A stretch of 64,000 nucleotides of DNA, from the NCBI GenBank assembly GCA_000004985.1, contig GG738847.1, one strand, 5' to 3'. The notes beneath the pieces are model-generated. The model saw only the letters and a list, made by a program, of their open reading frames with translations, was not told the origin of the DNA and ran no database searches. This DNA comes from Naegleria gruberi. Lineage: Eukaryota. Below, piece by piece: positions 40,899 through 60,530 of this stretch (position 1 is the first letter of the stretch; every line of letters starts with the position of its first letter). The position numbers and the translations under genes were made by a program.

Positions 40899-42108
40899 AT
40901 TCTTTTTGATTTTGTTTCTTTCGTATTGCATCTCTCGCTATTCGATAGGTATTGGTGGATGTGATAATAGTTTAGGATGGACCTGTCAGTTATAGATGAT
41001 TTCAATAAATTGGGACATTTCATCAACCATCTTTCTGAACGCTTTGGAAAAACGACATGTTTTTGATGGGACAAAATTGACAAGTTGACACATAGCAAGT
41101 ATGATAACAAATTAGTGATTTGCCTAGTTGAGTTTTAGAGGATGTAGTGAGCTTTATTGGATTGTTGCATTTTGATTCTGGAATCCAGAAGAATCTTGTT
41201 TCGATTTTTCCTTAAGAAAAAAAGGTTTCGTCGCTTCATTTACAGGATGTGTATCCGAAAGGTTGAGTTGTAAAAGAACATGTTTTGTTGAAGGATGATT
41301 TCTCAAGTTTCATTCACTAGTCCAATATGAAATCTTTGAAACTGTCATCTGTAGGTCAGTTTCTTAATGTTTATTCAAACCTTTCCAATGAAAAAAATGT
41401 AAAAATCAACAATTTAAACACATGTTATTTTTGATTAATAGTGACATTGCCTGTTATTGTGGAATTGGTAGAATAATCCAATAATTGAAGTGTTGATTTA
41501 GAAGTTGTAAACTAAAGTACAACAATTCACACCCATCACAAACTACTGCATTCTTCCATTACAATCATTGATGAGTGGAAAGTTGTACATTTCTGAGTGT
41601 TTGATTTTTCAATAATTGTAAAACAATAATGTTATTGGATAACACAACAATTTCTCCTCTTGATTCATTCTCATGCAGTATTGCACTAAGAGAGGTAAAA
41701 CTTTTCAAACTTCACTTGTTTGTGTTGAATGAATTGTAGATATCGAACAATGAAATTAATTTTTTTAAAACTGTCTCTCTGTGTAATCCATTTCCAATAC
41801 TGAAAACTAATTATTGAATTATCAATAATTCATCATCTCCAAAGAAAATGTGATTGACTTGAGTCATTGTTATAACCAACAATTAAAAGAGACGTTTCAA
41901 ACCATTGAAGTGAGGGTGTTAAATGTTGAATTTCAACGAAGAAAGGGGAGACACTTCACCAATCAACAAAATTGCTGTAAAGTTGACAACAAGTGTCTAC
42001 TGTCATCTTATCACAAACTAGAAAAAAAAAACTCAATACTTGATCAACGCAAATCTTCACACAGTTCACATAAATTGATTGCAATATTTTGTAACCCATC
42101 ATCACACA

Positions 42109-43926
42109 ATGAGTAACAATAATTCTGAAGATATTGCTGCTTCAAGTTTTGCCAATAGAAAGGCTCTATTCCAAAACCTACAGAGCAATCCAAGTAATAG
42201 TAGCACAACTACCAAATCTACTACTACTCAATCTTCCACTTCCACTACTACCACTGGTAAATTACCTGCATTCAATCCGATCAATAAATCATCGACACCA
42301 AGCAACTCGTCATCTACTACCTCCAGCACAACTCCCGCCAATTCTAATACAGTAGTCACCAACAACACAAGTGGCAGTGGAGGAGGTTCGAGCCAATTTA
42401 GGGAAGCTTTGAAAGGATTGAGTGGTGCAGCTGGAGGTAATCCACTGTTTGCTGGTGGTTTTGTGAAGAGTACAACAACAACTGCAACCACCAGTTTGCC
42501 AACTTATAAACCATCAACACCGAGAGGTAATAATAATAACAGTGGTGTTGTAAATTCGGTGAGTGAAAAGAAGGAACCACCTAAATTACCACCACGTAGA
42601 GGATCTGGTATTGGATCAAACAATACAAGCACTGCTACACTCACATCAGGTGGTAGTAATAATAATAATAATAATTTGCAAACAGCAACAACAACAACAA
42701 CTAGTCAACCTCCTCCTGCTTTGCCTCCTAGAAAACTTTCACAAAAGAAAGATGAACCACCACAAATACCAATTGTTACTAAGCAACAAGTTGTCGTAGA
42801 GGAAGAACCAATTGTTGAGGAGGAAATTCATCACGAAGAAGAAGAGGAAGACGAGGAAGAAGTTATTCAAGTACGTGATAGTATTCGACATGAAAGTGAT
42901 GACGAGGATGAGTCAGACTCGGAGGAAAGTTCTACACCTTCTACACCAAGTGGAACATCATCTTCTACTACATCAATTAACAATAACAATAATTCACTTC
43001 CACAAACATTGACCATTCAGAGTACTCCACCTCCTCTACCAAAGAAAACACCAAGTCAAGAAACACCAATTGTTGATAGTTATTCCATCACATTACATAA
43101 TGCTACACAATCTTTGAACAACAACAAATCAAATCAGAATGATGACGAAGATCCAACAGCAAATCTACCAAAGGGATGGACAGCCTACTTTGACCCTGGT
43201 CGTCAGGCCCACTATTACCACAATGAATTTACTGGAAAAACAACATGGAAGAAGCCTCCATCCGATGTTATTGTCTCCTCTTCATCATCTACTTCTGCAA
43301 CAACAACAAAGGAAGAAGAACAATTAGAAGATGGATGGACAGCCTATTTCGACTCTGGTAGACAAGCCTACTACTATCATCACGAACAGACTGGTAAAAC
43401 TACATGGAAGAAACCAATCAAGCAACAACAACAACCAAAGGTTTCTCCTCGCAAGCAAACTCCACCTCCAACTAGTACTACCACTTCTGCTGTACAACAA
43501 CAACAAACTTCTCCACAGAAACAAACACCTCCAGTTGTCCCAACTAGAAAACTCTCACAAAAGAAGGATGATGTTGCTCAGGAATCAACAACGCAACAAC
43601 CTCCTTCTATTCCTCCTGTAAAACCAACTCGTCCTGCTACCAAGAGTATTATTGAGAATAATCCTCCTCCAGTTGTTGTTGTCGAGAGCAAACTTCCATC
43701 ATTACCACCTGCAAAACCAATTAGAAAGGAAACAAATTCTCCAACAACAACTCAAGGAGATTCATCTGCTCCACCTCTTCCTCAGGAAAACCACTCAACA
43801 AGGCAACACCCCCACCACAAATTCCAACAGGAAAACCATCAAGAAATCCTTTGGAATCTTCTGCAAAGAATGATCATCGTCAATCGACAGTCATTAGGGA
43901 AGATGTCATGTTGCAACCACAATTAA
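42109..43926 (+). CDS. Proline-rich protein with two WW domains. It is very probably the N-terminal part of the downstream myosin gene, separated from it by a 1-nt frameshift at about 43785-43790.
   Basis: WW domains LPKGWTAYFDPGRQAHYYHNEFTGKTTWKKP and LEDGWTAYFDSGRQAYYYHHEQTGKTTWKKP. Flanking repeats PPALPPRKLSQKKDEPPQ and PPVVPTRKLSQKKDDVAQ. The ORF ends 75 nt after the start of the myosin frame. Confidence 0.7.
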   Translation: MSNNNSEDIAASSFANRKALFQNLQSNPSNSSTTTKSTTTQSSTSTTTTGKLPAFNPINKSSTPSNSSSTTSSTTPANSNTVVTNNTSGSGGGSSQFREALKGLSGAAGGNPLFAGGFVKSTTTTATTSLPTYKPSTPRGNNNNSGVVNSVSEKKEPPKLPPRRGSGIGSNNTSTATLTSGGSNNNNNNLQTATTTTTSQPPPALPPRKLSQKKDEPPQIPIVTKQQVVVEEEPIVEEEIHHEEEEEDEEEVIQVRDSIRHESDDEDESDSEESSTPSTPSGTSSSTTSINNNNNSLPQTLTIQSTPPPLPKKTPSQETPIVDSYSITLHNATQSLNNNKSNQNDDEDPTANLPKGWTAYFDPGRQAHYYHNEFTGKTTWKKPPSDVIVSSSSSTSATTTKEEEQLEDGWTAYFDSGRQAYYYHHEQTGKTTWKKPIKQQQQPKVSPRKQTPPPTSTTTSAVQQQQTSPQKQTPPVVPTRKLSQKKDDVAQESTTQQPPSIPPVKPTRPATKSIIENNPPPVVVVESKLPSLPPAKPIRKETNSPTTTQGDSSAPPLPQENHSTRQHPHHKFQQENHQEILWNLLQRMIIVNRQSLGKMSCCNHN

Positions 43927-46900
43927 TGCCATCTCTTCCAGATGAAGTTGGATTTTCTAGAAAGTCCATCTCACGTGATCGTTATCAACCAATCAACTCT
44001 GCATATCAACAAGATTTCCGTGTTCGTAGATTGGAAGATCGTGAAATGTGTGACGATTTAACATTGCTCCTTTCACAAAGTTCAATGAAATCAAAGAAAT
44101 CCGAGCAAATGGTGGTTCCACAAAAGACTGAAATTACAGAAATTGATTTGACCAACATTTTGGCCAATCGTTATTATCAAAATGAAATTTACACATGTGT
44201 TGGTCCTGCCATTCTCTCAATCAATCCATATAAGGCTGTAAAGGGTCTATACAGTAATGAAACAAAGGCTCTCTTCCACTCTCACATTCCATACGAGTTG
44301 GCTCCTCATATTTATTCACTTGCTGAGGATGCTTATCGTACATTGTTGGAACATGCCACTGCTAACAAGCCAACCTCCACTCATGTCACAAGAGCTAGAC
44401 CTGCCATTACTGCTGTGTCATCTTCTTCTGCTCACTCTAAAAAGATGCCACCTCCTCCACCTCCTGGTAAACCAATCAATAAGGAAGCTGATTTGGATGA
44501 TGATACATTCATTATTAATGATTTCAGTATTTCAGATGGTATTGGTGTTGGACAAGCAATTATTATTCAAGGTGAATCTGGTTCTGGTAAGACACTAGCC
44601 AGCAGAATTATCATGGAATACTTGGCTGCTGTTTCAATTTCTGGATTGGAAACTCAAAGAATCAAGGATTCAATTCTTCAAAGTAATCCACTCTTGGAAA
44701 GTTTTGGTAATGCCAAGACTCTTCGTAACAACAACTCTTCTCGTTTCGGTAAATTTACCAACTTGTATTTTAACTTTAAGGGCCAACTCATGGGAGGTGA
44801 GCTCACAACCATTCTCCTCGAAAAGGCCAGAGTTGTCAAGAGAAGACTTGGAGAACGTAATTTCCATATCTTTTACCAATTGTTATCTGATGATTATATT
44901 AGAAAACAACTCAATCTTGGTTTCCCAGAAGAGTACAATTACCTCAACAATAATGTTATCAATATTAACGAAGTTGATGACAAGTCAGAATTTGAAACAA
45001 CCAAACGTGCCATGGATTTATTGGACATGAGTGTTCCAGAACAAATGGCTGTTTTCAAGATTGTTGCTGCCATTTTGCAATTGGGTAATATTACCTTCAC
45101 AGCCATTGAAGATCCTGAGGAGAGAAAGAGAAGAAACATCGCTCCTGGTGTTGAAGCTTGTGATGTTTCTAATGAAGCTTCATTGAAATTGGTTGCCAAC
45201 ACTCTCCAAATTGATGCTGAATTCTTGAGAAGATCAATGATTATCAGAGTTATCAAGACTGTTGGTTCTCCAATGCCAATTGAACAAACTCAATCAGTGG
45301 AACAAGCTGAATTCAACAGAGATACTCTCGCCAAGAATATCTATGAACGTTTGTTCTTGTGGTTGGTCAAGAGAGTCAACAGAGCATTGAGAGTTCCTGA
45401 CTATGAAGATTTTGTTGCCAAGAAGAATTCTGAAACTTACTACAATATTGGTATCTTGGATATTTATGGTTTTGAAATCTATGACAAGAATATTGGAACA
45501 GGAAAGATTGTTGATCAAGATGAAGCATCCAATCAAGGCAAACTCAAGAACGGCTTTGAACAATTGTGTATCAACTTTGTCAATGAAAAGATTCAAAGTG
45601 GTGTTCAAAGATCCATCAAGAAGGAACAAGAAGACATTCAAAAGGAAATTTATGGAGATGACTTTAAGCCAACTCTTGCCTCTACTCAAGAGAGAAACAA
45701 GAGATTCGACTCTGATGCTGCTATTCAAATGATTGCTGGCAAGCCAATCAGTGTCTTTTCATTGTTGGATGAAGAATCCATGTTCCCTAATGGTAATGAT
45801 GTTAACTATGTTCAAAAGATGAAGACCAACATCAAACATCCATACTTTAAGATTCCAAGAATTGCAGAACCAACAGAATTTGAATTGGAACACTTTGCAG
45901 CTCTCGTCAAGTATAACACTGCAGATGGATGGGTTGACAAAAATCGTGACACTTTACTCGCTGAAATGCTCTACACTATGCAAAATACAAAGGACCACTT
46001 GCTTATGGCTCTCTTCCCTAAGAATGAACAAGCTAATGATGTTCTCTCTAAAAAGCCAGCCAATGCAGGAACCAAACTTCAACAAACAACTGCTGAAAAG
46101 TTCTTGAGAGATGTCAGCAAGTTGATGAATCAATTGAGTTCATGCAGCTTGAAACATCACCACATTAGATGTATCATTCCAAACTATGAAGGAAGAGCTG
46201 ATGATTTCCAAAAGGACGTTGTTAATCACCAAGTTAGATATTTGGGTATTTTAGACACTGTCCTCTCGAGAAAAGCCGATGATTTGGGATCCAATGTGAC
46301 TGGTTACAGCATTAAGATTCCGTACGATACCTTCCTTGAAAGATACAAGCTTCTCTGTCCTGAAACATTCCCATATTGGGAAACTTTCATTACCAACAAG
46401 TATGGTCCTGTTGAGGAATTCACTATTGAACACAAGAAGGAAGCAGTCCATCAAATTTTGAGCCAAGAACATATTGGTATGACCAATCCACAAGATTTCT
46501 TCTTGGGTAGAGGTAATGTCTTGTTGGCCTCTCCAGTTCAACTCTTCCAATTGGATGAAATGATCAGAGAACAAAAACATGAAATGGCTAGAAAGATTCA
46601 AAACTCCTTCAGAAGATACAGAAAGAAGAGAGCTGGAAAGATGGAAGAAATGATGAAGAAGGCTATCAAGACAACTGAACCAACCAAGCAAAAGGAAGCT
46701 CCTGAAGAAATCAGAATTAGACATGACGGTTTCAGAACATCCAACTTTGGTGAAACAAAGAAACGTGTCTTGATCACTGGTAGTGACAGAAGAAATATTT
46801 TCCTCTTGGATACTACAAGCTCATCTTCAGAGTTTGAACAATTGAGAAAGATTGCCATTAGAGATATCAAGAAGATTTACATTTCACCATACTCTGATAA

Positions 46901-49526
46901 TTACATGATTTTCAAGTTGGACATGGATGAAGGTGATGAATTGGTAGAACTAGATAACAAGTGGGAATTTTTGGAAGAATTTAACAAGCTTATTGAATCA
47001 ACTGCCTCTAACTTTAAGGGTGAACATGTTCCAAGAGTTGAAGTTACCAAGGACATTAGTATCCTCAATCATCAAAAGGACAAGAACACTGGTACTCAAA
47101 ATTTATTGGTCAGATTTATTCCATCTGCCTACAATACCAAGAAGACTGTTACCACTGAATGCTATGCTGATGAATTTGATAATAGACTCTTCATTGTCAA
47201 CACCTTCACTCAAGCTGATATTTACAATCAAAGAAAGTTGAGAAGAAAGGCCTCACTCTATGCCAAGCAAGATCAAAACAGAGATTACTTGAGAATGCAA
47301 AACAGTGAATTGATGCAACTCTTAAAGAAGGATTATGATGACTCCAAAGTTCTATTCTCTGGTGTCGTTTCCAAGTATAACAAGAGATTCAAGAAGCAAG
47401 ACAGAATTTTCATGGTCACCGATAAGGCCATTTATAATATTGATCCAAGTGGTGGTTACCTCATCAATAGACGTGTTCCAATTGGCCAAGTAACCTCTGT
47501 CACTGTCTCACCTTACACTGATAACTTCTTTGTTGTTGATCATCCAGATCAAGATATTTTGAGTGAAAGTGCCAAGAAGACTGAAATTTTGGAATCCATT
47601 TTGGAAAGCTTCCAAAATGCTACCAATCAATTGTTACCGGTCAAGGTCACTACCAACTATTACATTAACTTGGCCAAGAAGAATACCAAGCGTGTCGCTA
47701 TTTCATGGATTATTGAACCAGAAAATCAAACACAATTCTCAGTTTCTACACTTGTTCCAAATACTGCTGGTGGAGCTGATGTTCATGTTGTTTCTGAAGT
47801 TGATAACGATAATGACAAGTCAATGAATGATTTGGCTGTTAGACAATCCTTCCAACGTAGATCAGTTCGTGGTAAGATGGTTAAGAATGGTGATATGGAT
47901 GAGGTTGATTTGAATGACGTCTTTGGTGGTTTGAAGGTTCGTAGAAAGGACTCTCTCCTCGTCTGGTTCCAAGGTGATTATTTGAACTTTAAGGACAATC
48001 CAAAATTCATCGAAATGGTCAAGAAGCACGATCCAGAATGGAATGGACAAGTTCTCTTCTCTAACCTAATGACTAAAGTCAATAAGAGATTCAGAACTCA
48101 ACCTAGAAAGGTTGTAGTTACACCAAATTACATTTACACTCTCGATGATGAAAAGTTACACTTTAACAGAATTACTCCAATCAAGGATTTGAGTGGTATT
48201 TCTCTCAGTACTATGAGAGATGCCTTCTTTGTTGTCCACTGCCCAACTGATCACGATTTATTTGCATCTTGTAAGAAGAAGACTGAATTAGTTTCTGTTA
48301 TTTGTGATGCCTTCAAAGATAAGACTGGTATGGATCTCCCAGTTCACGTAGAAGATAAATTCGTCTACAAACCAAGTACAGATGTTAAAGGTGTTAAAAC
48401 AATTGAATTTAGACATGATCCAACCACCAAGGTTCCAATCCTTACTCCAACCAAGTTGGGTTGTCTCATTCAAGTTAACAATTCTGATCCTGAAAAGGTT
48501 AAACAAAACTTACCAACTGCCAAACAACAAAAACCAGCTGCAACTCCACAACTCAAGTTATATGAAGGTTCTGATGAAAGAGGTATTCAAGATAAGATGG
48601 ATTCCATCTATACAGGAAGAAAGGGACGTAATAGAAGATCTCTCCTTCGTGAATATCTTGGTGACTATTTGAGATTGGAAGGTACACAAAGAATGAAGAA
48701 GGTTTTCGATAGAAATGGTGATACTGAATTAATCTTCTCTGGACAAGTTCTCAAATATAACAAGAACTTTAAGAAGCAACATCGTTTATTGGTTGTAACA
48801 GACAAGAATGTTTACAATATTGATGAACAAGAATTCAAGATTAAGAGAAAGATTCCACTTGAAGAAATTACAGGTGTCTCTGTTTCTCCATTCGACGACA
48901 ATGTATTTGTTATGCACTGTCCAACTAGTGGTGACTATTTGTTGGAAGATGAAAAGAAGACTGAAATTATTTCTGCTCTCCAAAATGCAAGACTCAGACA
49001 CTTGAAACAACCATTGAAGATTAATGTTGATGACCAATTTAACTTTGCTCCAAACTCTTCATCTACCATGCCAGTTACTTTCATTAGTGATGATCACTGC
49101 AAGGATACTTGGGCTGAGAATAGAGCTAATGCATTGGTTGTTCACGTAAAGAGACAAGAACCTGGTGTAGTATTGGAAGCTGCCTATCTCTATTTGAATG
49201 AAGAATCTAAACCAATTGAAGTTAAATCAACACCAATTCTTATCAAATTGAAGAAGAGATGGACCTACAAGTTGCAAATTCGTTTCTATGTCAATGAATA
49301 CTTGGCAGGATGTGAATTCCACGAAAAGATTGATACTGTGTCTTCGAGACTTGAATTTGTATCCAAAGTTGTTGAACTGGAACCAAAAGAAGAACGTTAT
49401 GTTATTACCCTTCCTGAAAGAAAGGTAATTTATTCATTGCTTTCCAAAACCAGAGTCAAGTGCAAGCTAGTTGATCCAAGTGGTAAAGTTCTCATGGCTG
49501 TTCGTTTTGTTTATGATATTCAATAA
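43851..49526 (+). CDS. Unconventional myosin heavy chain: motor domain, an IQ motif and three tandem myosin-I-type TH1 (tail homology 1) domains. The reading frame is continuous upstream to 43725 and merges with the WW-domain ORF if one A is added to the A-run near 43787.
   Basis: P-loop GESGSGKTLASRII, switch I NNNSSRFGKF, switch II LDIYGFE, IQ ARKIQNSFRRYRKKRAG. Three TH1 repeats: ...FSGVVSKYNKRFKKQDRIFMVTDKAIYNIDP...VSPYTDNFFVVDHP, ...FSNLMTKVNKRFRTQPRKVVVTPNYIYTLDD...AFFVVHCP, ...FSGQVLKYNKNFKKQHRLLVVTDKNVYNIDE...VSPFDDNVFVMHCP. Confidence 0.85.
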   Translation: MESSAKNDHRQSTVIREDVMLQPQLMPSLPDEVGFSRKSISRDRYQPINSAYQQDFRVRRLEDREMCDDLTLLLSQSSMKSKKSEQMVVPQKTEITEIDLTNILANRYYQNEIYTCVGPAILSINPYKAVKGLYSNETKALFHSHIPYELAPHIYSLAEDAYRTLLEHATANKPTSTHVTRARPAITAVSSSSAHSKKMPPPPPPGKPINKEADLDDDTFIINDFSISDGIGVGQAIIIQGESGSGKTLASRIIMEYLAAVSISGLETQRIKDSILQSNPLLESFGNAKTLRNNNSSRFGKFTNLYFNFKGQLMGGELTTILLEKARVVKRRLGERNFHIFYQLLSDDYIRKQLNLGFPEEYNYLNNNVININEVDDKSEFETTKRAMDLLDMSVPEQMAVFKIVAAILQLGNITFTAIEDPEERKRRNIAPGVEACDVSNEASLKLVANTLQIDAEFLRRSMIIRVIKTVGSPMPIEQTQSVEQAEFNRDTLAKNIYERLFLWLVKRVNRALRVPDYEDFVAKKNSETYYNIGILDIYGFEIYDKNIGTGKIVDQDEASNQGKLKNGFEQLCINFVNEKIQSGVQRSIKKEQEDIQKEIYGDDFKPTLASTQERNKRFDSDAAIQMIAGKPISVFSLLDEESMFPNGNDVNYVQKMKTNIKHPYFKIPRIAEPTEFELEHFAALVKYNTADGWVDKNRDTLLAEMLYTMQNTKDHLLMALFPKNEQANDVLSKKPANAGTKLQQTTAEKFLRDVSKLMNQLSSCSLKHHHIRCIIPNYEGRADDFQKDVVNHQVRYLGILDTVLSRKADDLGSNVTGYSIKIPYDTFLERYKLLCPETFPYWETFITNKYGPVEEFTIEHKKEAVHQILSQEHIGMTNPQDFFLGRGNVLLASPVQLFQLDEMIREQKHEMARKIQNSFRRYRKKRAGKMEEMMKKAIKTTEPTKQKEAPEEIRIRHDGFRTSNFGETKKRVLITGSDRRNIFLLDTTSSSSEFEQLRKIAIRDIKKIYISPYSDNYMIFKLDMDEGDELVELDNKWEFLEEFNKLIESTASNFKGEHVPRVEVTKDISILNHQKDKNTGTQNLLVRFIPSAYNTKKTVTTECYADEFDNRLFIVNTFTQADIYNQRKLRRKASLYAKQDQNRDYLRMQNSELMQLLKKDYDDSKVLFSGVVSKYNKRFKKQDRIFMVTDKAIYNIDPSGGYLINRRVPIGQVTSVTVSPYTDNFFVVDHPDQDILSESAKKTEILESILESFQNATNQLLPVKVTTNYYINLAKKNTKRVAISWIIEPENQTQFSVSTLVPNTAGGADVHVVSEVDNDNDKSMNDLAVRQSFQRRSVRGKMVKNGDMDEVDLNDVFGGLKVRRKDSLLVWFQGDYLNFKDNPKFIEMVKKHDPEWNGQVLFSNLMTKVNKRFRTQPRKVVVTPNYIYTLDDEKLHFNRITPIKDLSGISLSTMRDAFFVVHCPTDHDLFASCKKKTELVSVICDAFKDKTGMDLPVHVEDKFVYKPSTDVKGVKTIEFRHDPTTKVPILTPTKLGCLIQVNNSDPEKVKQNLPTAKQQKPAATPQLKLYEGSDERGIQDKMDSIYTGRKGRNRRSLLREYLGDYLRLEGTQRMKKVFDRNGDTELIFSGQVLKYNKNFKKQHRLLVVTDKNVYNIDEQEFKIKRKIPLEEITGVSVSPFDDNVFVMHCPTSGDYLLEDEKKTEIISALQNARLRHLKQPLKINVDDQFNFAPNSSSTMPVTFISDDHCKDTWAENRANALVVHVKRQEPGVVLEAAYLYLNEESKPIEVKSTPILIKLKKRWTYKLQIRFYVNEYLAGCEFHEKIDTVSSRLEFVSKVVELEPKEERYVITLPERKVIYSLLSKTRVKCKLVDPSGKVLMAVRFVYDIQ

Positions 49527-53179: not shown

Positions 53180-56100
53180 ATGACAGCAGCTGTCAATAAT
53201 CGAAAGAAAATGAAGTGTTCAAATAAGAGACGACAACAGTTGACCACCACCATCATGATGTTCATGGTGATGGTGATTGGAATTATTTTACTCACCAAAA
53301 ATGTTCAAAGTTTATTACCACGATATAAAATTGAAGTGCTATCCGGAAATCCATACATGTCCACAGCACTCTATGATGGAATTATGGCCACAGATGCAAT
53401 TCTCAACCTTCCAAGAAACGTACTCCTCTACAATGATGAATTGTACATATCCGATACCTTTAATCACATGATTAGAAAGGTTTCGAAAAATGGAACACTC
53501 ACCACATTGGTAGGAGTTGGTGCTGCTGGTTCAAATGATGATGATGGTTTGCTTGGAATTGATACTCAACTAAACAATCCGAATGGTTTATCCATTTCTC
53601 CAAATGGTGAATTATTGTTTATTGCTGATACTGATAACAAATTGATTCGAGTTTTGAATATGAAAACAATGATTTGTAATGTATTTAAAATGTTTACATC
53701 GAGTGGGGTGTTAGATACCTTGACGAAACCAGTTGGTGTTTCCATTACAAGTAATTGGAATATTTACATAACCGATGACAAGTATGTGAAAAAGGTTAAT
53801 TATTATACAAGAGTAGTTACAATTATTGCAGGAGGTATGTTATATTGTTATTGTTTTTAATACGAAACTATTGAAATTTGTTTTTTTTTGTTCTGATTGA
53901 CTAAAAAGGTGGAAGTGGTAGTTATAAAGATAATGTCGTTCCAACAACCATTTCAATCACAAGTCCTAAACTCATTCATACCATTCCTTACACTCCTGAT
54001 TCTACTCTTGTAGTTTTTACTGATGCCACAACTGCTAAATTTATTATAGATACAGAAAGTTTACAATCAACCACAAAAACAGGACTTGTAGGAGGGTAAG
54101 TTTTAATCATCAATTTATTGAGTACTAGAGTAATATATTTTGAAAAATAGTTCAAATATTCCAGCAATTTTTCCATTTTCCACCACAACATTTTACTATT
54201 CTTTGGGAAATGGGATTTTTAACTTGGAAAGTGGAATTAATACTCCTAAATCTGCAACTACTGGTGGTGATGCTGGAAAGTATAGTGTAACTAATATGGC
54301 GTATTCTTATTTTAACACTTCTTATGGATTACATGGAAATAGTTCAGTGATTTATATTGCAGATTCGGCTAATTATTGTATTAGAAAGTATGATATTGCG
54401 AATAATTCTGTATCAACTGTTGCAGGTTTCAAATATCAACCTTCTTTTGAAGGAGTTTATGCTTTATCTGTTTATGCAGATTTGAAAATTCAAAAGTTAA
54501 CCGTGACCTACAAGGATGAAATTATTTATCTTGACACTAACAACAGAGTTAGAATGATTACAGCCAATGGAAGAATCAAAACACTCATTGGATCTGAGTA
54601 TACATCCAAATATCCAGTTTGTGTTTCAACATCTATTGCTTTGGAATGTAGGGCAACTAACGCGATTGATATTATGAGCGTTGGAGATTCTCTAATTCTC
54701 TCAACTTTAAAATTATTCAGTTATGATTTGGCAAGCATTTCAGGAACATCTACCATTACCCAACAAGGTACTGAACTAGTAGGTACTTTCTCTCTAAGAG
54801 CAATGAATGGCTCATCAGGTGCTGTCGTATATTTCCTAAATAATGCCAATCAATTGTTAAAAAAATCTTTAACTGGTTTGGAAACAGTTGTGAAAGGATC
54901 ATTATCTGCATCAGATTTCAATATTGTAAATATTGATACTGATTTCGCTAGAATTTGCTATATTGAGAGTGGAATTATCACTTGCTTTAATGAGACTGAT
55001 TTAAGTTCAATTGTTCTCCCAATGCCATCTGGAGAAACCAAGTTCACAAGCGTTGCACTCACTAGTACTACTGTCTATGCATCAACAAGTAATAGAATCT
55101 ATGCCTATTCAGTTTCTGATTATTCAACTGCTTACCTAATTGCAGGTTCAAAGCCAGTTAATGTGAATGGACAAACTTTTGATTATAGTGGGTACAACAG
55201 TGATTACATTTTGGCAACTAGTGCTATTTTGAGTGATATCAGTAATTTGCAAGTCTCTTCTTCTAATGGAAATATCTATTTTGTGAGTGGTGGTACTTTG
55301 ATTAGAAGAATTGCCAATGGATTTGTTTCTACAGTTGCTGGTATTTCACCTCTCCATACAGAAGGTATAACACCAATGGCAATTGCAAGAGATTCAGCTA
55401 AAAAGATCACCTATTTCATTGACAGTAATACACATGTTAAAATGATGGATGAAGCCAGTGGAATTATTAGTCCACTTACTTTACCAATTAAACCAAGTCC
55501 TGATCCACAAAATATTACATTACCATTAACATTTTTAAGAGCTCCACCAAAGAATGCAGGTCAATTATTGACTTATTCCTCCTATGATGGTTTATTATAT
55601 CTTGCAGATTATTGCAGAATTATTTCCATCAATGTTACATCTGCTTCATACAAGCTTGTAACTGGTACTGTGTGTGGAGATAGTGCTGACAATATTTTAG
55701 CAATCAATTCATTCATTCAAACACCAAGTTCCATGACAGTCGACTCTAAAACTGGAGATTTATACTTTACGTTTGGAACAAAGATTTTGAAAATTGAAAA
55801 GAAAACTGGTTTATTAACGACATTATATGGCAGTACTGGTAAAATTGGAACTGTTGTGAATGGAATAATTTCCAAAACTTCTCTCCTCACCAACATTACA
55901 AGTTTGGTCGTGTCTGATGATATTATTTACTTTGCAGATATTACTCGTAGCGTTAGACAAATAGCTCTATCAAACAGTAATTTGACAACTTTGGTTACCA
56001 TGGCTGCGGTCACTGAAAAGATGCTTTCAATTTCACTCGATAAGAATGGTGACATTTTCATTCTCGATACCTATACTTACTTAATTAGCAAGTACATTAA

Positions 56101-57656
56101 AAGTTCAGGTGGGGTCCCCAAAGAGGTAGCAGGAAAACAATTTGGTAAAGGATTCAATGGAAGATACAATGCTCAGGCAACGAATTCCAATTTGAGAAAT
56201 TTTATTTCCTCTGTCAACATTGACAATGGAATAATGTTTACTGAAATTGCAGATAAGACTGGTGGTCTCATTAGAAAAATAACAGCTCAATGTGATGGAA
56301 ATTCAACCCTGGACTCTAGTGGAGGTAGTTGTGTCTGTAATGATGGATACACTGGAGATTCTTGCAATGTATTCGTTTGTTATGGTTTAACTGCAACTAG
56401 TTCAGAAGTATGCTCAGGAAATGGATCGTGTATTGATGTGAATGTGTGTAAATGTAGGGATGGATTCGAAGGTTCCTCATGTAATATTGTTAAGGCTGCA
56501 AATGTCACAACAGGAGATTCATTGGGTGTGATTTTACCTGCTGTTCTCGTTCCAATATTGGTTATTTTGATTATTATTGTAATTATAATTGTAGTGGTAA
56601 TCATTGTGTTTGCCACAAAAAAGAAGAAGAAGAAGGATAAGGGATTGGAAGAAACCACAGATTTTGATGAAGTTCCAATGAGTGATTTGCCATCTGACAT
56701 GTCTGTCATTTTGAGTAGCAGTTTGACAAGAAGTGTTTCATCATCAACCAATGAAGAAGAAAATCTCTTTACAAGATATCAAGATATTGTCAAGATTGGA
56801 CAGGGAGCATTCGGTAGTGTTTTTAAAGTTAGAGATACCAAAGACGGAGACAAGATCAAAGCTGTTAAAGTTTTGAAATTTAATTCTGTCAGTGATTTGA
56901 ATATGATTATGAAAGAAGGTGCTCAATTAACAAACGCCAAACACAACCACATTCTCAAAGTCAATGATTATTTCATTACTAACGACAATTTACTTTGTAT
57001 TGATATGGACTATTATGAAAAGGGAGATTTGTCTCAATTTACCAAAACTGATTGTCCAGAACATATTGTAAAACAAATTCTCTATCAATTATGTGATGCT
57101 TTGAGTTATGTTCATGGAACTCTTTCCATGATTCACAGAGATATCAAGCCAACTAACATTTTTGTAAAGGAATATGATGGAACAAATGTCAGTGTCATTC
57201 TTGCTGATTTTGGTTTAGCCAAACAAGCTCAAGAATCAGCTGCAAATTCATATGCTGGTACTCCACTTTGTAAGTTTTTAATTTTCCTTTTTATTTACAA
57301 ATATTTCAATTAATTTTACAATTTTAATTTTTTTAATATTTCAATTGTTAATTAATAATATTTCAGATATGAGTCCTGAACTTGGATTAGGAGGAAAATA
57401 TTATCCAAACTCTGATACTTATTCACTAGGTGTTACAATTTATCAAATAATGACAAAGGACCTTACCACATCAATCAGTCACTTGTTGTTGAATGATCCA
57501 CAAAATGCTCAATCGAAATTGAGAGACAAGATGAAACAATCTAAACTGGGTTACTCAGATCAGCTTATTGACTTGATTATTAGAATGTTGGACAAGGACA
57601 GTTTAACTAGACCTAATGCTGCAGACATTCTTTCAGATTCGTATTTCAGAAGATAA
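53180..57656 (+). CDS. Single-pass receptor kinase: signal anchor, NHL-repeat beta-propeller-like ectodomain, EGF-like cysteine modules, a TM segment and a cytoplasmic NEK-like Ser/Thr kinase domain. Four exons: 53180-53834, 53909-54095, 54151-57269 and 57367-57656.
   Basis: NHL-like repeats (LYISDTFNHMIRKVSKNGTLTTLVG..., LLFIADTDNKLIRVLN, IYIADSANYCIRKYD...). EGF-like CVCNDGYTGDSCNVFVC...CSGNGSCIDVNVCKCRDGFEGSSCN. TM VLVPILVILIIIVIIIVVVIIVFA. Kinase YQDIVKIGQGAFGSVFKVRD...AVK...HRDIKPTNIFV...DFGLAK...GTPL|YMSPE (NEK-like GTPxYMSPE). All three introns have GTATGT/GTAAGT donors and were verified in frame. Confidence 0.75.
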
Positions 57657-59335: not shown

Positions 59336-60530
59336 TTAATTAAAAACTTCCCAAATTGGCCTCAATGATTTGTATGGAATTGCAAATGGAATCTCAATGA
59401 ATCCTCTAAAGATCTTCATCACATCTAATCCTGCCAACACACCAATAATTGCACCAATTTCTCCCAAAGCAGATTCAAGCGTAACAGAATGAATCTCTTC
59501 AATTTCATACTGATTCAGTGTTGCATACGCAAATGAAACTACAATGATATCTTCCTCATGTTCAGTCAATCCAATTGCTGCCAAAGAGGCTCTCTGAAAA
59601 CAATCATTAATCCAATAAATCCTATTTAACAATACTTACCCATCTCATTTCTTCTCTTGTGGAGGAACTGCTACTAGTTTCGCTAGTGCTACTTCCTTCC
59701 CCAGAAGATTTAATTGATTGAGCTTTTCTTGCTGATATACTTTCAACAGTTCCAGAGCTACCTGATTGGTGACTGTCCAAATACTTGGTATGATACTTTG
59801 TCAAAATGAAAAAATTATCAACTCCAGCCATTGCAAAATTACTTTCCGAAACTACATCAGGAACTGTTCCTTGTTTGTGAAATGAAACTTGTAATCCGTA
59901 TCTAAAATAAAGATTGTTTGGCATCTTGGGAACTTTGAAAAAGAGTGAATAGGAAGCTCCATATCCAGTCAAGGAAGCTTCTGGAAGTGGATGATGGGTA
60001 TCATTATTAATAACAATGCAATGAAAACTATCAATCACTGCCGAATCGTAATGCATTTCAAAGTCTATGATAGATCCATTTTCTAAAACTCTTGTAGTAT
60101 GTTCCAATGTGAGGTTACAAGTATCACAATGCTTCAAAGCATTATAATTACAAATAGTAATTGCAGGAAAAGCCATCGGAATGTGTTCAACCAATGAAAG
60201 TGAAGTCACAGGATTATGTAAGGCATGAAGGTAGTGAGTTGCCACATCATATATAAACCAAATTGTGAAGGATATCGCAGCAATCCAACAAACAAATATT
60301 ATTAATTCCTGATATCTAATTCCGAAAGGTAATTTAGGAAATCCAAAATCATTCTTTTCAAATCTCTTTTTCTTCAGTGTTTTCGAATCCACTTCTCCGT
60401 CATGATTTAATGGAACAACCTTGTTAGTATTTATTGAAGCTGTCTTTTTAGCCTCTTCTTGTTGTTTGCTTTTTGATGATGCCGTAGGAATTTGATGTTG
60501 CTGCTGTTGATCCCCCACCACAGCTGCCAT
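59336..60530 (-). CDS. Two-TM channel-like protein with DEG/ENaC (ASIC/degenerin) family hallmarks. It lacks the Cys-rich thumb and has GLD in place of the GAS filter. Two exons (60530-59640 and 59593-59336, minus strand), with a 46-nt GTAAGT...TTTCAG intron in phase 0.
   Basis: TM1 LIIFVCWIAAISFTIWFIY. Post-TM1 motif AFPAITICNYN (compare ASIC FPAVTLCNLN). Palm strand RYGLQVSFHKQGTVPDVVSESNFAMAGVDNFFIL (compare [34 protein letters not shown]). Pre-TM2 VVSFAYATLNQYEIEE. TM2 LGEIGAIIGVLAGLDVMKIF (compare [21 protein letters not shown]). Confidence 0.65.

What the first reader, a model, noticed from the sequence alone, without database searches (positions are those of the whole stretch)
53180..57656. 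Receptor-type NEK-like kinase with an NHL-propeller and EGF ectodomain
A four-exon gene encodes a signal anchor, then about 1000 aa of extracellular NHL-type repeats and EGF-like Cys modules, then a single TM, then a kinase domain whose motifs (HRDIKPTNIF, GTPLYMSPE) resemble NEK-family Ser/Thr kinases rather than receptor Tyr/TKL kinases. A transmembrane receptor fused to a NEK-like catalytic domain is not a standard architecture. It suggests independent invention of receptor kinases in this lineage.
Basis: partly seen in the sequence, partly recalled or inferred. Interest (0 to 1): 0.65.

Follow-up and report, generated by a model that had tools for sequence, protein, structure and literature searches.

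The report
Naegleria NHL-propeller receptor Ser/Thr kinase
This is a real four-exon Naegleria gruberi gene for a single-pass membrane receptor with NHL propeller repeats and EGF modules outside and an active-looking Ser/Thr kinase inside; it is one of a sizeable, uncharacterised Naegleria-specific receptor-kinase family, so the architecture is genuine but not unique to this gene.

Summary
One in-frame GT-AG model (exons 53180-53834, 53909-54095, 54151-57269, 57367-57656) gives a 1416-aa protein. It has an N-terminal signal or anchor, about 1000 aa of NHL blades, two EGF-like modules, one TM helix followed by KKKKKK, and a complete protein kinase domain. Exon 3 alone carries NHL, EGF, TM and most of the kinase in one ORF, so the fusion does not rest on splicing.

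The window is Naegleria gruberi NEG-M. The architecture is not a one-off. [quoted passage not shown] Four of them align end to end at 30-33% identity.

The kinase is clearly not TK or TKL (Pfam Pkinase 162 bits against PK_Tyr_Ser-Thr 101). "NEK-like" is only weakly supported. NEK2 and NEK1 lead two of three PDB rankings by 5-11 bits, MST3 leads the third, and GTPLYMSPE also occurs in bacterial kinases.

My best reading is a lineage-specific type I receptor Ser/Thr kinase, probably activated by ligand-induced clustering and activation-loop autophosphorylation. That mechanism is inferred. No searchable paper describes the family. Interest is moderate.

The parts
53180..53834 (+). Exon 1. Contains the start ATG, the basic N-terminus, the hydrophobic signal or anchor, and the first NHL blades (residues 1-218, phase 1).
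   Evidence: Unique in-frame model. ORF listing. Blade HMM hits at residues 84, 140 and 190.
53237..53296 (+). N-terminal hydrophobic segment, residues 20-39 (LTTTIMMFMVMVIGIILLT). It follows RKKMKCSNKRRQQ and is either a signal peptide or a signal anchor.
   Evidence: Kyte-Doolittle peak of 2.37. No SignalP was available, so cleavage was not tested.
53835..53908 (+). Intron 1 (74 nt, GTATGT...AAAAAG, GC 20%).
   Evidence: It contains an in-frame stop at 53858. Paralogue alignment is continuous across the junction.
53909..54095 (+). Exon 2 (residues 219-281), part of the NHL region.
54096..54150 (+). Intron 2 (55 nt, GTAAGT...AAATAG, GC 20%).
54151..57269 (+). Exon 3 (residues 282-1320). It carries NHL blades, the EGF modules, the TM helix, the juxtamembrane segment and the kinase up to GTPL in one uninterrupted ORF.
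   Evidence: ORF 54140-57313. tblastn.
53315..56278 (+). NHL-repeat ectodomain, residues 46-990, interrupted by introns 1 and 2. Eleven blades are recognisable by sequence. The length suits roughly three six-bladed propellers.
   Evidence: Pfam TEN_NHL and NHL. Self-built blade HMM. The AF2 model is all-beta with four-strand blades and pLDDT 80-90 for residues about 750-940. Foldseek hits teneurin-like protein, SOQ1, NHLRC2 and Pizza6 propellers.
56285..56482 (+). Two EGF-like Cys modules, residues 993-1058. One has four Cys and one has the canonical six.
   Evidence: Pfam EGF_Teneurin 993-1021 and EGF_2 1031-1058. Cys positions. These Cys columns are invariant or nearly invariant in paralogues.
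56525..56617 (+). Transmembrane helix, residues 1073-1103, followed by KKKKKKDK (positive-inside).
   Evidence: Hydropathy peak of 4.24. Paralogues have a TM at the same distance upstream of the kinase.
56618..56776 (+). Juxtamembrane segment, residues 1104-1156. It is acidic and then Ser/Thr-rich (SSSLTRSVSSST). It contains M1131, which aligns with the start of the kinase-only N. gruberi models.
56777..57647 (+). Protein kinase domain, residues 1157-1414, interrupted by intron 3. Key residues: G-loop at 1164, K1187, E1203, D1278, N1283, D1300, S1314, T1318, E1325 and R1402.
   Evidence: Pfam Pkinase, 161.6 bits, covering positions 1-263 of 263. All 27 columns that are invariant across the 16-member family alignment A3, which includes this protein, carry the residues listed.
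57270..57366 (+). Intron 3 (97 nt, GTAAGT...TTTCAG, GC 11%). It splits GTPL|YMSPE.
   Evidence: The junction reconstitutes the family-invariant GTPL.MS.E motif. Relative L003 lacks this intron.
57367..57656 (+). Exon 4 (residues 1321-1416 plus the TAA stop).

Best explanation
The locus encodes a type I single-pass receptor Ser/Thr kinase of Naegleria gruberi. It belongs to a Naegleria-specific multigene family with the layout signal/anchor, NHL beta-propellers, teneurin-type EGF module(s), TM helix, a short Ser/Thr-rich juxtamembrane segment, and a C-terminal kinase.

**Shown**
- The gene structure.
- The domain order and the predicted topology.
- Retention of every catalytic residue.
- The existence of end-to-end homologues in three Naegleria species.

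**Inferred**
- The NHL/EGF ectodomain is exposed at the cell surface. It binds an extracellular ligand or surface, for example prey, substrate or another cell.
- Binding clusters the receptors.
- The RD-type kinase then trans-autophosphorylates. A likely site is the Ser1314 position of the activation loop, which is conserved in most family members. After that it phosphorylates cytoplasmic targets.

The kinase domain is a lineage-specific eukaryotic Ser/Thr kinase. It is roughly equidistant from NEK, ULK, STE20 and CAMK, with NEK marginally closest. It is not a TK, TKL or RLK-type domain. The family is therefore most likely an independent assembly of a receptor kinase.
For: **Gene model**
- There is a unique GT-AG in-frame solution.
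- The introns are AT-rich and carry stops.
- Exon 3 is one ORF from NHL to kinase.

**Domains and topology**
- Pfam domains.
- Two hydrophobic segments, with a positive-inside KKKKKK after the second.
- 13 N-x-S/T sequons in the ectodomain against 1 in the cytoplasmic part.

**Organism**
- Three window ORFs are identical to N. gruberi NEG-M proteins XP_002682376.1, XP_002682579.1 and XP_002682364.1.

**Family**
- An exhaustive phmmer search found many long proteins aligned in one stretch across EGF, TM and kinase.
- All those checked are Naegleria proteins.
- Six of six tested carry NHL/TEN_NHL hits plus a C-terminal Pkinase.
- Collinear full-length alignments exist with P0333 (N. gruberi, 32.7%), P0209 and P0207 (N. 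lovaniensis, 31% and 30%) and P0339 (N. fowleri, 30%).
- About 30 proteins (a few of them near-identical or fragmentary copies of one gene) score at least 250 bits on the family kinase profile, against 166 for the nearest outsider. Most of the long models have a TM shortly upstream of the kinase, roughly 30-120 aa.

**Kinase competence**
- All family-invariant residues are present.

**Kinase class**
- Pkinase scores far above PK_Tyr_Ser-Thr.
- The nearest non-family neighbour, P0129, is a clear NEK2 homologue.

**Ectodomain fold**
- The AF2 model shows four-strand blades.
- Foldseek hits are to a teneurin-like protein, SOQ1, NHLRC2 and Pizza6 NHL propellers.
Against: - There is no transcript, protein, localisation or activity data. 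Ligand, surface exposure and the activation mechanism are all inference.
- Five deposited N. gruberi relatives are kinase-only models. Two of them start at a Met homologous to M1131. A shorter kinase-only product from an internal start therefore cannot be excluded.
- The ectodomain model is poor overall (mean pLDDT 56, pTM 0.46). The count of three propellers is an estimate.
- The locus's own protein never appeared in protein searches, while the neighbour's did. I could not see how, or whether, it is annotated.
- Independent origin rests on score rankings and taxonomic restriction. It does not rest on a phylogeny.
Confidence: 0.8

Rival explanations
1. The catalytic domain is a true NEK (NIMA-related) kinase, phylogenetically nested within NEKs, that was captured by a receptor ectodomain.
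For: - NEK2 and NEK1 are the top PDB hits for the single sequence (94.7 and 91.5 bits). They are also top for the 16-member family profile (161 and 159 bits).
- The closest non-family protein in the word-seeded search, P0129, is NEK2-like. It scores 232 bits to NEK2 against 173 for the next hit.
- The HRDIKPxNIF and GTPxYMSPE motifs are present.
- A Ser sits four residues before the GT of GTP. From memory, this is where NEK2 has its activating Thr175.
Against: - The margins are small: 11 bits over ULK3 and 7 bits over ULK1.
- MST3 outranks the NEKs with the subfamily profile.
- GTPLYMSPE is common in bacterial Ser/Thr kinases, and the word-seeded search is biased towards it.
- The longer beta7-beta8 link (KEYDGTNVSVILADFG) resembles ULK and CAMK rather than NEK. 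This comparison is from memory.
- The layout is unlike any NEK: a C-terminal kinase, no coiled coil, and membrane-anchored.
Confidence: 0.3
2. The fusion is only apparent. In vivo the locus yields two products: an NHL/EGF/TM surface protein, and a separate roughly 285-aa cytosolic kinase translated or transcribed from M1131.
For: - The deposited N. gruberi relatives P0121, P0122, P0123, P0126 and P0127 are kinase-only. P0121 and P0122 begin 'MIISSS', which is homologous to the window's 'MSVILSSS'.
- NHL-EGF-TM proteins without a kinase exist (P0002 and P0018).
Against: - There is no stop, splice signal or frame change between the TM helix and the kinase. Exon 3 is a single 1043-codon ORF.
- At least nine independently predicted full-length models in three species keep the two halves together and collinear.
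- The short models may simply be truncated predictions.
Confidence: 0.07
3. It is an organellar (ER) type I sensor kinase analogous to PERK or IRE1, rather than a cell-surface receptor.
For: - It has type I topology with a non-TKL Ser/Thr kinase, as in PERK and IRE1 (established knowledge).
- PKR and GCN2 (PEK family) are among the better PDB hits, at 78 and 143-146 bits.
Against: - EGF-like modules and NHL propellers of the teneurin type are typical of extracellular proteins.
- The family has many paralogues per genome, unlike the single-copy stress sensors.
- PEK scores are below those of NEK, ULK and STE20.
- No ER-retention motif is evident at the C-terminus (...SDSYFRR).
Confidence: 0.05
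4. It is a decaying or non-functional paralogue (pseudogene) of the family.
For: - No self-hit was found in the protein databases.
- A close environmental relative, L003, carries a premature TAA. It also has substitutions at invariant residues.
Against: - The 1416-codon reading frame is intact, with canonical splice sites.
- All 27 family-invariant kinase residues and all the EGF cysteines are retained.
Confidence: 0.04

Closest known systems
Uncharacterised Naegleria NHL-EGF-TM-kinase proteins. Examples: N. gruberi XP_002672884.1 (D2VSK9), XP_002678153.1, XP_002674300.1 and XP_002672252.1; N. lovaniensis XP_044550582.1 and XP_044542747.1; N. fowleri XP_044563041.1.
   Same: - The same domain order from end to end.
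- Collinear alignment at 30-33% identity over about 1400 aa.
- Kinase domains 47-65% identical.
- A TM helix at about the same distance from the kinase.

   Different: - These are paralogues, not this gene. The best full-length identity is only 33%.
- Some relatives have far more EGF repeats and blades (2100-2800 aa).
- One N. gruberi protein (P0347, and its near-identical ENA copy P0211) has a degenerate catalytic loop, HGN in place of HRD.
- None has been studied experimentally as far as I could find.
Mycobacterium tuberculosis PknD, a receptor Ser/Thr kinase with a six-bladed NHL beta-propeller sensor. Recalled from memory; see also PMC6107167 and PMC1262709, listed.
   Same: - A single-pass membrane Ser/Thr kinase whose extracytoplasmic sensor is made of NHL blades.
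- The modelled propeller matches Pizza6 designer propellers with TM-score 0.67. From memory, these were derived from the PknD sensor.
   Different: - The order is reversed: PknD is kinase-TM-propeller, while this protein is propeller-EGF-TM-kinase.
- PknD has one propeller and no EGF modules. This protein has roughly three propellers.
- PknD has a bacterial PknB-type kinase, whereas the top hits here are eukaryotic kinases.
- The resemblance is therefore analogy, most likely convergence.
NEK (NIMA-related) kinases, for example human NEK2 and NEK1.
   Same: - They are the best or near-best scoring characterised kinase family.
- They share the HRD(I/L)KPxN(I/V)F and GTPxYMSPE motifs.
- Both are RD kinases with a phosphorylatable residue at the same activation-loop position.
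   Different: - NEKs are soluble, with an N-terminal kinase and coiled-coil or other C-terminal regulatory regions.
- The score margin over ULK and STE20 is 2-11 bits and reverses in one test.
Teneurins and teneurin-like proteins.
   Same: - The ectodomain matches Pfam TEN_NHL, EGF_Teneurin and EGF_TEN.
- The best Foldseek hit is a teneurin-like protein, 9ifo_A.
   Different: - No YD-shell, Tox-GHH or other teneurin-specific domain was detected.
- Teneurins are type II membrane proteins without a kinase.
Plant RLK/Pelle and animal TGF-beta-type receptor Ser/Thr kinases (TKL group).
   Same: Type I single-pass receptor with a cytoplasmic Ser/Thr kinase. The logic of ligand-induced oligomerisation is presumed to be the same.
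   Different: - The kinase is not TKL-like. PF00069 exceeds PF07714 by 60 bits.
- Some environmental NHL-EGF-TM-kinase proteins do look TKL-like (P0290 and P0307).
- The ectodomain type is different.

Membership tests
Naegleria NHL-EGF-TM-kinase receptor family (deposited, uncharacterised) | End-to-end collinear homology with family members | tested here: met
   blastp gives window residues 25-1416 against P0333 residues 12-1380 at 32.7% identity. P0209, P0207 and P0339 give 30-31% over more than 1300 aa.
Naegleria NHL-EGF-TM-kinase receptor family (deposited, uncharacterised) | Family-type kinase domain, separated from other kinases by score | tested here: met
   The window scores 446 bits on the family profile and other members score 250-467. 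The nearest outsider, P0129, scores 166. In the phmmer ranking there is a sharp drop from 219 to 121 bits. Caveat: the window's own kinase domain is one of the nine sequences in the profile (A1), so its 446 bits is partly circular. The independent support is the 53-59% identity to family members and the 219 to 121 bit drop in the phmmer search.
Naegleria NHL-EGF-TM-kinase receptor family (deposited, uncharacterised) | NHL blades and EGF module(s) N-terminal to a TM helix that lies roughly 30-120 aa upstream of a C-terminal kinase | tested here: met
   for the window. for the relatives.
NEK (NIMA-related kinase) family | Kinase domain groups with NEKs to the exclusion of other ePK families | tested here: inconclusive
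   Single sequence: NEK2 94.7 bits against ULK3 83.4. Nine-sequence profile: MST3 128 against NEK1 126.6. Sixteen-sequence profile: NEK2 161 against ULK1 154. No labelled kinome was available for a tree.
NEK (NIMA-related kinase) family | Soluble protein with an N-terminal kinase and C-terminal coiled-coil or regulatory region | tested here: not met
   The kinase occupies the last 260 residues and ends 2 aa before the stop. The protein has a signal or anchor and a TM helix.
NEK (NIMA-related kinase) family | Catalytic-loop HRDxKPxN and P+1 GTPxYMSPE motifs | tested here: met
   Both are present. They are not diagnostic, because the same P+1 motif occurs in many bacterial Ser/Thr kinases.
TKL / receptor-type kinases (RLK-Pelle, TGF-beta receptor, RTK) | TK/TKL-type catalytic domain (PF07714 scoring at least as high as PF00069; TK/TKL among the best structural relatives) | tested here: not met
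   PF00069 scores 161.6 against 101.1 for PF07714. The best-scoring PDB sequences are Ser/Thr kinases (NEK, ULK, STE20, CAMK, PKR and, p38 MAPK), apart from one anomalous two-stretch 'EGFR' entry.
PknD-type bacterial NHL-sensor Ser/Thr kinases | N-terminal cytoplasmic PknB-type kinase, then a TM helix, then a C-terminal extracytoplasmic NHL propeller | tested here: not met
   The domain order is the reverse. The best kinase matches are eukaryotic, and no mycobacterial Pkn appears in the top 60.
Teneurins | Type II topology with EGF repeats, NHL propeller, YD/Rhs shell and a C-terminal toxin-like domain | tested here: not met
   Only the NHL and EGF components match. There are no YD, Rhs or Tox hits at E <= 1. 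The topology is type I.

The most novel reading that the evidence does not exclude
Naegleria assembled its own receptor-kinase system independently of animal RTK/RSTK and plant RLK lineages. It did so by joining a bacterial-like NHL propeller and teneurin-type EGF ectodomain to a lineage-specific, NEK/ULK/STE-like Ser/Thr kinase.

The same ectodomain cassette is also plugged into GPS-7TM-RGS receptors (P0015). It also occurs in kinase-less single-pass proteins (P0002 and P0018). Together these would form a modular surface-sensing toolkit, for example for prey, substrate or kin recognition, that nobody has described.
Probability: 0.5. Interest if true: 0.55.

Novelty: new variant of a known kind. 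Interest (0 to 1): 0.4.

Why it matters
**Why it could matter**
- Receptor kinases are textbook examples of repeated, lineage-specific invention: animal RTKs and RSTKs, plant RLKs, Entamoeba TMKs.
- Heterolobosea are a deep, little-studied eukaryotic branch.
- Finding a sizeable Naegleria family adds an independent example of how a free-living amoeboflagellate may sense its surroundings. The family couples NHL propellers and EGF modules to a non-TKL kinase, and it shares that ectodomain with 7TM-RGS receptors.
- It gives concrete candidates for prey or contact sensing. These include candidates in the pathogen N. fowleri, which has homologues.

**Why the interest is limited**
- The family's sequences are already public.
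- This gene is just one paralogue.
- Everything functional is inference.

Tried and rejected
1. **Looking up the locus or its N. gruberi paralogues on contigs.** The neighbouring ZnT gene and P0121-P0123 were 'not on record'. I therefore could not inspect N. gruberi paralogue loci, or test whether the kinase-only models are truncated.

2. **N. fowleri homologue P0128.** It sits at a contig end with only 263 nt upstream, so it is uninformative about an ectodomain.

3. **Full-length word-seeded search.** It was swamped by bacterial NHL proteins and missed the true paralogues. The kinase-only search also missed the full-length family. Only the exhaustive search revealed it.

4. **Self-BLAST for repeats.** It returned nothing. 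I replaced it with an iterated blade HMM.

5. **Structure prediction of the whole spliced ectodomain.** The exon-3 part was modelled at low overall confidence, so the number of propellers remains an estimate.

6. **Claiming the gene is unannotated.** No self-hit was returned, while the neighbour gave a 100% self-hit. I did not claim it, because GenBank accession numbering of the flanking plus-strand genes (EFC49620...EFC49632) leaves room for a model here and I could not read the record.

7. **A real phylogeny of the kinase.** No labelled kinome sequences were obtainable with the tools, so I used PDB score rankings instead.

8. **Literature.** No paper in the searchable library describes Naegleria NHL receptor kinases. 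The N. gruberi genome paper itself is not held.

9. **Horizontal transfer of a PknD-like gene.** I rejected this because the domain order is reversed and the kinase is of the eukaryotic type.

Full report

Yes. The region is AT-rich eukaryotic DNA (window GC 34.4%).

I scanned all GT/AG pairs around the proposed junctions. Exactly one stop-free, in-frame model came out: exons 53180-53834, 53909-54095, 54151-57269 and 57367-57656, encoding 1416 aa.
- The three introns are 74, 55 and 97 nt long. They begin GTATGT or GTAAGT and end in AG.
- Their GC content is 11-20%, against 34-35% in the exons.
- Without splicing the frame stops at 53858.

Exon 3 is a single ORF (54140-57313). It carries NHL blades, the EGF modules, the TM helix and the kinase up to GTPL. 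The fusion of ectodomain and kinase therefore does not depend on any splice.

Evidence for the individual junctions:
- The exon 1/2 junction lies inside a '...TIIAGGG...' motif that is conserved in paralogues, with no indel.
- The exon 3/4 junction rebuilds the family-invariant GTPL.MS.E motif.
- An 82% identical environmental contig (L003) reads straight through that point without an intron.

**What the protein looks like**

Pfam gives these hits:
- Pkinase at 1157-1414 (E = 3e-47, full model length).
- TEN_NHL and NHL.
- EGF_Teneurin at 993-1021.
- EGF_2 at 1031-1058.

Hydropathy finds only two hydrophobic segments.
- Residues 20-39 follow a basic N-terminus. This is a signal peptide or signal anchor, and cleavage was not testable here.
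- Residues 1073-1103 are followed by KKKKKKDK.
- This gives a type I topology, with about 1030 aa outside and the kinase inside.
- There are 13 N-x-S/T sequons in the ectodomain and one in the cytoplasmic part.

Ectodomain:
- A blade HMM built from the protein itself recognises 11 NHL blades, spaced about 50 aa apart.
- An AlphaFold model of the exon-3 ectodomain is poor overall (mean pLDDT 56).
- It is all-beta with four-strand blades, and it is confident (pLDDT 80-90) for residues about 750-940.
- Foldseek matches a teneurin-like protein, SOQ1 and NHLRC2 NHL propellers, and Pizza6 six-bladed propellers.
- From its length, the ectodomain could hold about three six-bladed propellers. This is an estimate.

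Kinase:
- All catalytic residues are present: the G-loop at 1164, K1187, E1203, HRD D1278, N1283, DFG D1300, APE E1325 and R1402.
- All 27 invariant columns of the 16-member family alignment, which includes this protein, carry the residues listed.

**Organism and surroundings**

Three ORFs of the window are identical to Naegleria gruberi NEG-M proteins on a 941,567-bp scaffold:
- ZnT/SLC30, XP_002682376.1.
- XP_002682579.1.
- Atg2-like, XP_002682364.1.

The neighbouring genes are unrelated in function. They are a Rieske/KshA-like oxygenase, a ZnT transporter, an ASC/ENaC-like ORF, and a myosin with TH1 tails. There is no paralogue of the receptor kinase in the window. Nothing of note lies on the opposite strand.

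**The key result: it is a family, not a one-off**

The word-seeded searches were misleading.
- The full-length query was swamped by bacterial NHL proteins.
- The kinase query returned only short kinase-only Naegleria models at 53-59% identity.

The exhaustive phmmer search used the last blade, EGF, TM and kinase as the query. It found many long proteins aligned in one stretch across EGF, TM and kinase.

Cluster look-ups show these are Naegleria proteins deposited as 'predicted', 'hypothetical' or 'uncharacterized' protein, or as 'serine/threonine protein kinase':
- N. gruberi: XP_002672884.1, XP_002678153.1, XP_002674300.1, XP_002672252.1, XP_002675547.1, XP_002679892.1, XP_002673894.1, XP_002674574.1 and XP_002676784.1.
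- N. lovaniensis: XP_044550582.1, XP_044542747.1, XP_044543675.1 and others.
- N. fowleri: XP_044563041.1 and XP_044565022.1.

Further support:
- Six of six tested carry NHL/TEN_NHL hits and a C-terminal Pkinase.
- Four align collinearly with the window protein over about 1350-1400 aa at 30-33% identity.
- About 30 proteins (a few of them near-identical or fragmentary copies of one gene) score 250-467 bits on the family kinase profile, against 166 for the nearest outsider. Most of the long models have a TM shortly upstream of the kinase, roughly 30-120 aa.
- Larger relatives (2100-2800 aa) have many more EGF repeats and blades.

**Kinase class**

The domain is a Ser/Thr-type ePK, not TK or TKL. 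Pkinase scores 161.6 bits against 101.1 for PK_Tyr_Ser-Thr. The best-scoring PDB kinases in all three rankings are Ser/Thr kinases: NEK, ULK, STE20, CAMK, PKR and, p38 MAPK. The one exception is an anomalous two-stretch entry named EGFR.

| Query | Top PDB hits (bits) |
|---|---|
| Single sequence | NEK2 94.7, NEK1 91.5, ULK3 83.4, MST3 79, PKR 78 |
| 9-member subfamily profile | MST3 128, NEK1 126.6, NEK2 125.6, ULK1 122.5 |
| 16-member family profile | NEK2 161, NEK1 159, ULK1 154, MST3 150, CDPK 148 |

- The nearest non-family protein, P0129, is clearly NEK2-like.
- That search is seeded by shared words such as GTPLYMSPE, which also occur in many bacterial kinases.
- NEK is therefore the marginally closest characterised family, but membership is not established.
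- The protein's layout is unlike any NEK.

**Mechanism**

Shown:
- The topology prediction.
- A complete catalytic apparatus.
- An RD-type catalytic loop.
- A Ser (S1314) four residues before the GT of the P+1 loop, conserved in most but not all family members. It is invariant in the 9-member subfamily alignment.
- A Ser/Thr-rich juxtamembrane segment.

Inferred:
- Ligand or surface binding by the propeller/EGF ectodomain.
- Receptor clustering.
- Trans-autophosphorylation of the activation loop.
- Downstream Ser/Thr phosphorylation.

Nothing here identifies the ligand.

**Comparison with known systems**
- The closest relatives are the uncharacterised Naegleria paralogues.
- The closest described analogue is bacterial PknD, an NHL-propeller sensor joined to a Ser/Thr kinase. 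Its domain order is reversed, and its kinase is bacterial.
- The ectodomain shares domain types with teneurins but lacks their defining YD shell.
- Plant and animal receptor Ser/Thr kinases use TKL-type domains, which this is not.
- Some environmental proteins have the same NHL-EGF-TM-kinase layout but with TKL-like kinases (P0290 and P0307). Propeller-EGF receptor kinases have therefore been built more than once.

**Novelty and verdict**

I found no paper describing this family. The N. gruberi genome paper could not be read. The sequences themselves have been public since 2010.

The locus's own product never came back from the protein searches, although the neighbour's did at 100%. I cannot tell whether it lacks a deposited model.

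Overall:
- The finding is a correct description of a real gene.
- The unusual architecture is genuine, but it is shared by a lineage-specific family.
- The 'NEK' label is weak.
- 'Independent invention' is plausible but untested by phylogeny.
- Interest is moderate, at 0.4.

Noticed in passing
P0015 (N. gruberi, 2442 aa); P0002 and P0018 (N. lovaniensis, 1410 aa): The same NHL plus teneurin-type EGF ectodomain is attached to other membrane modules. P0015 has a GPS motif at 1800-1839, at least six hydrophobic segments at 1857-2191, and an RGS domain at 2227-2309. This looks like an adhesion-GPCR-like 7TM-RGS receptor. P0002 and P0018 end in a single TM helix with no cytoplasmic domain.
   Followed up: partly
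L003 (ENA ERZ27254845, contig k141_1875099, 651 nt), aligned to window 56963-57538: This is an environmental relative, 82% nucleotide-identical to the kinase exon. It has no intron at the window's intron-3 site. Stop-rich, non-coding-looking sequence lies just upstream of 'NDYFIT'. A TAA replaces the APE glutamate, and family-invariant G and D residues are substituted. It looks like a decaying copy or an error-laden assembly.
   Followed up: partly
P0211 / P0347 (N. gruberi XP_002676784.1): A family member whose catalytic loop reads HGN in place of HRD and whose glycine loop is degenerate. It is probably a receptor pseudokinase.
   Followed up: no
P0121, P0122, P0123, P0126 and P0127 (N. gruberi); window residue M1131 (about 56699): Five deposited N. 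gruberi relatives are kinase-only models of 189-290 aa. P0121 and P0122 start 'MIISSS', homologous to the window's juxtamembrane 'MSVILSSS'. They may be truncated gene models, or they may hint at internal-start isoforms. Their loci could not be fetched.
   Followed up: partly
window 53180-57656: No identical or near-identical protein for this locus was returned by any of three protein searches. The neighbouring ZnT gene returned its own 100% match. Either the locus lacks a deposited model or the indexes miss it. GenBank numbering of the flanking genes leaves room for one.
   Followed up: partly
P0290 (L002, JGI metagenome 3300050380), P0307 and P0237: Environmental proteins with NHL-EGF-TM-kinase (P0290 and P0307) or RCC1-EGF-TM-kinase (P0237) layouts. 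The kinases of P0290 and P0307 score about equally on PF07714 and PF00069, which is TKL-like. Similar receptor layouts therefore exist with a different kinase type.
   Followed up: partly
window 59622-60530 (-): An ORF with a match to the amiloride-sensitive sodium channel (ASC/ENaC) family, E = 3e-11. This is an unusual family for a protist.
   Followed up: no
window 42079-49526 (+): An ORF with two WW domains overlaps, at its end, an 1891-aa ORF with a myosin head and four Myosin_TH1 matches. It may be a single WW-myosin gene with multiple TH1 tails.
   Followed up: no
PDB entry 9p9u_A: A 678-residue chain named 'Epidermal growth factor receptor' tops the family-profile PDB search through two matched stretches. 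Its best stretch lies at residues 15-216. It behaves like a two-kinase chimera, so I disregarded it for classification.
   Followed up: no
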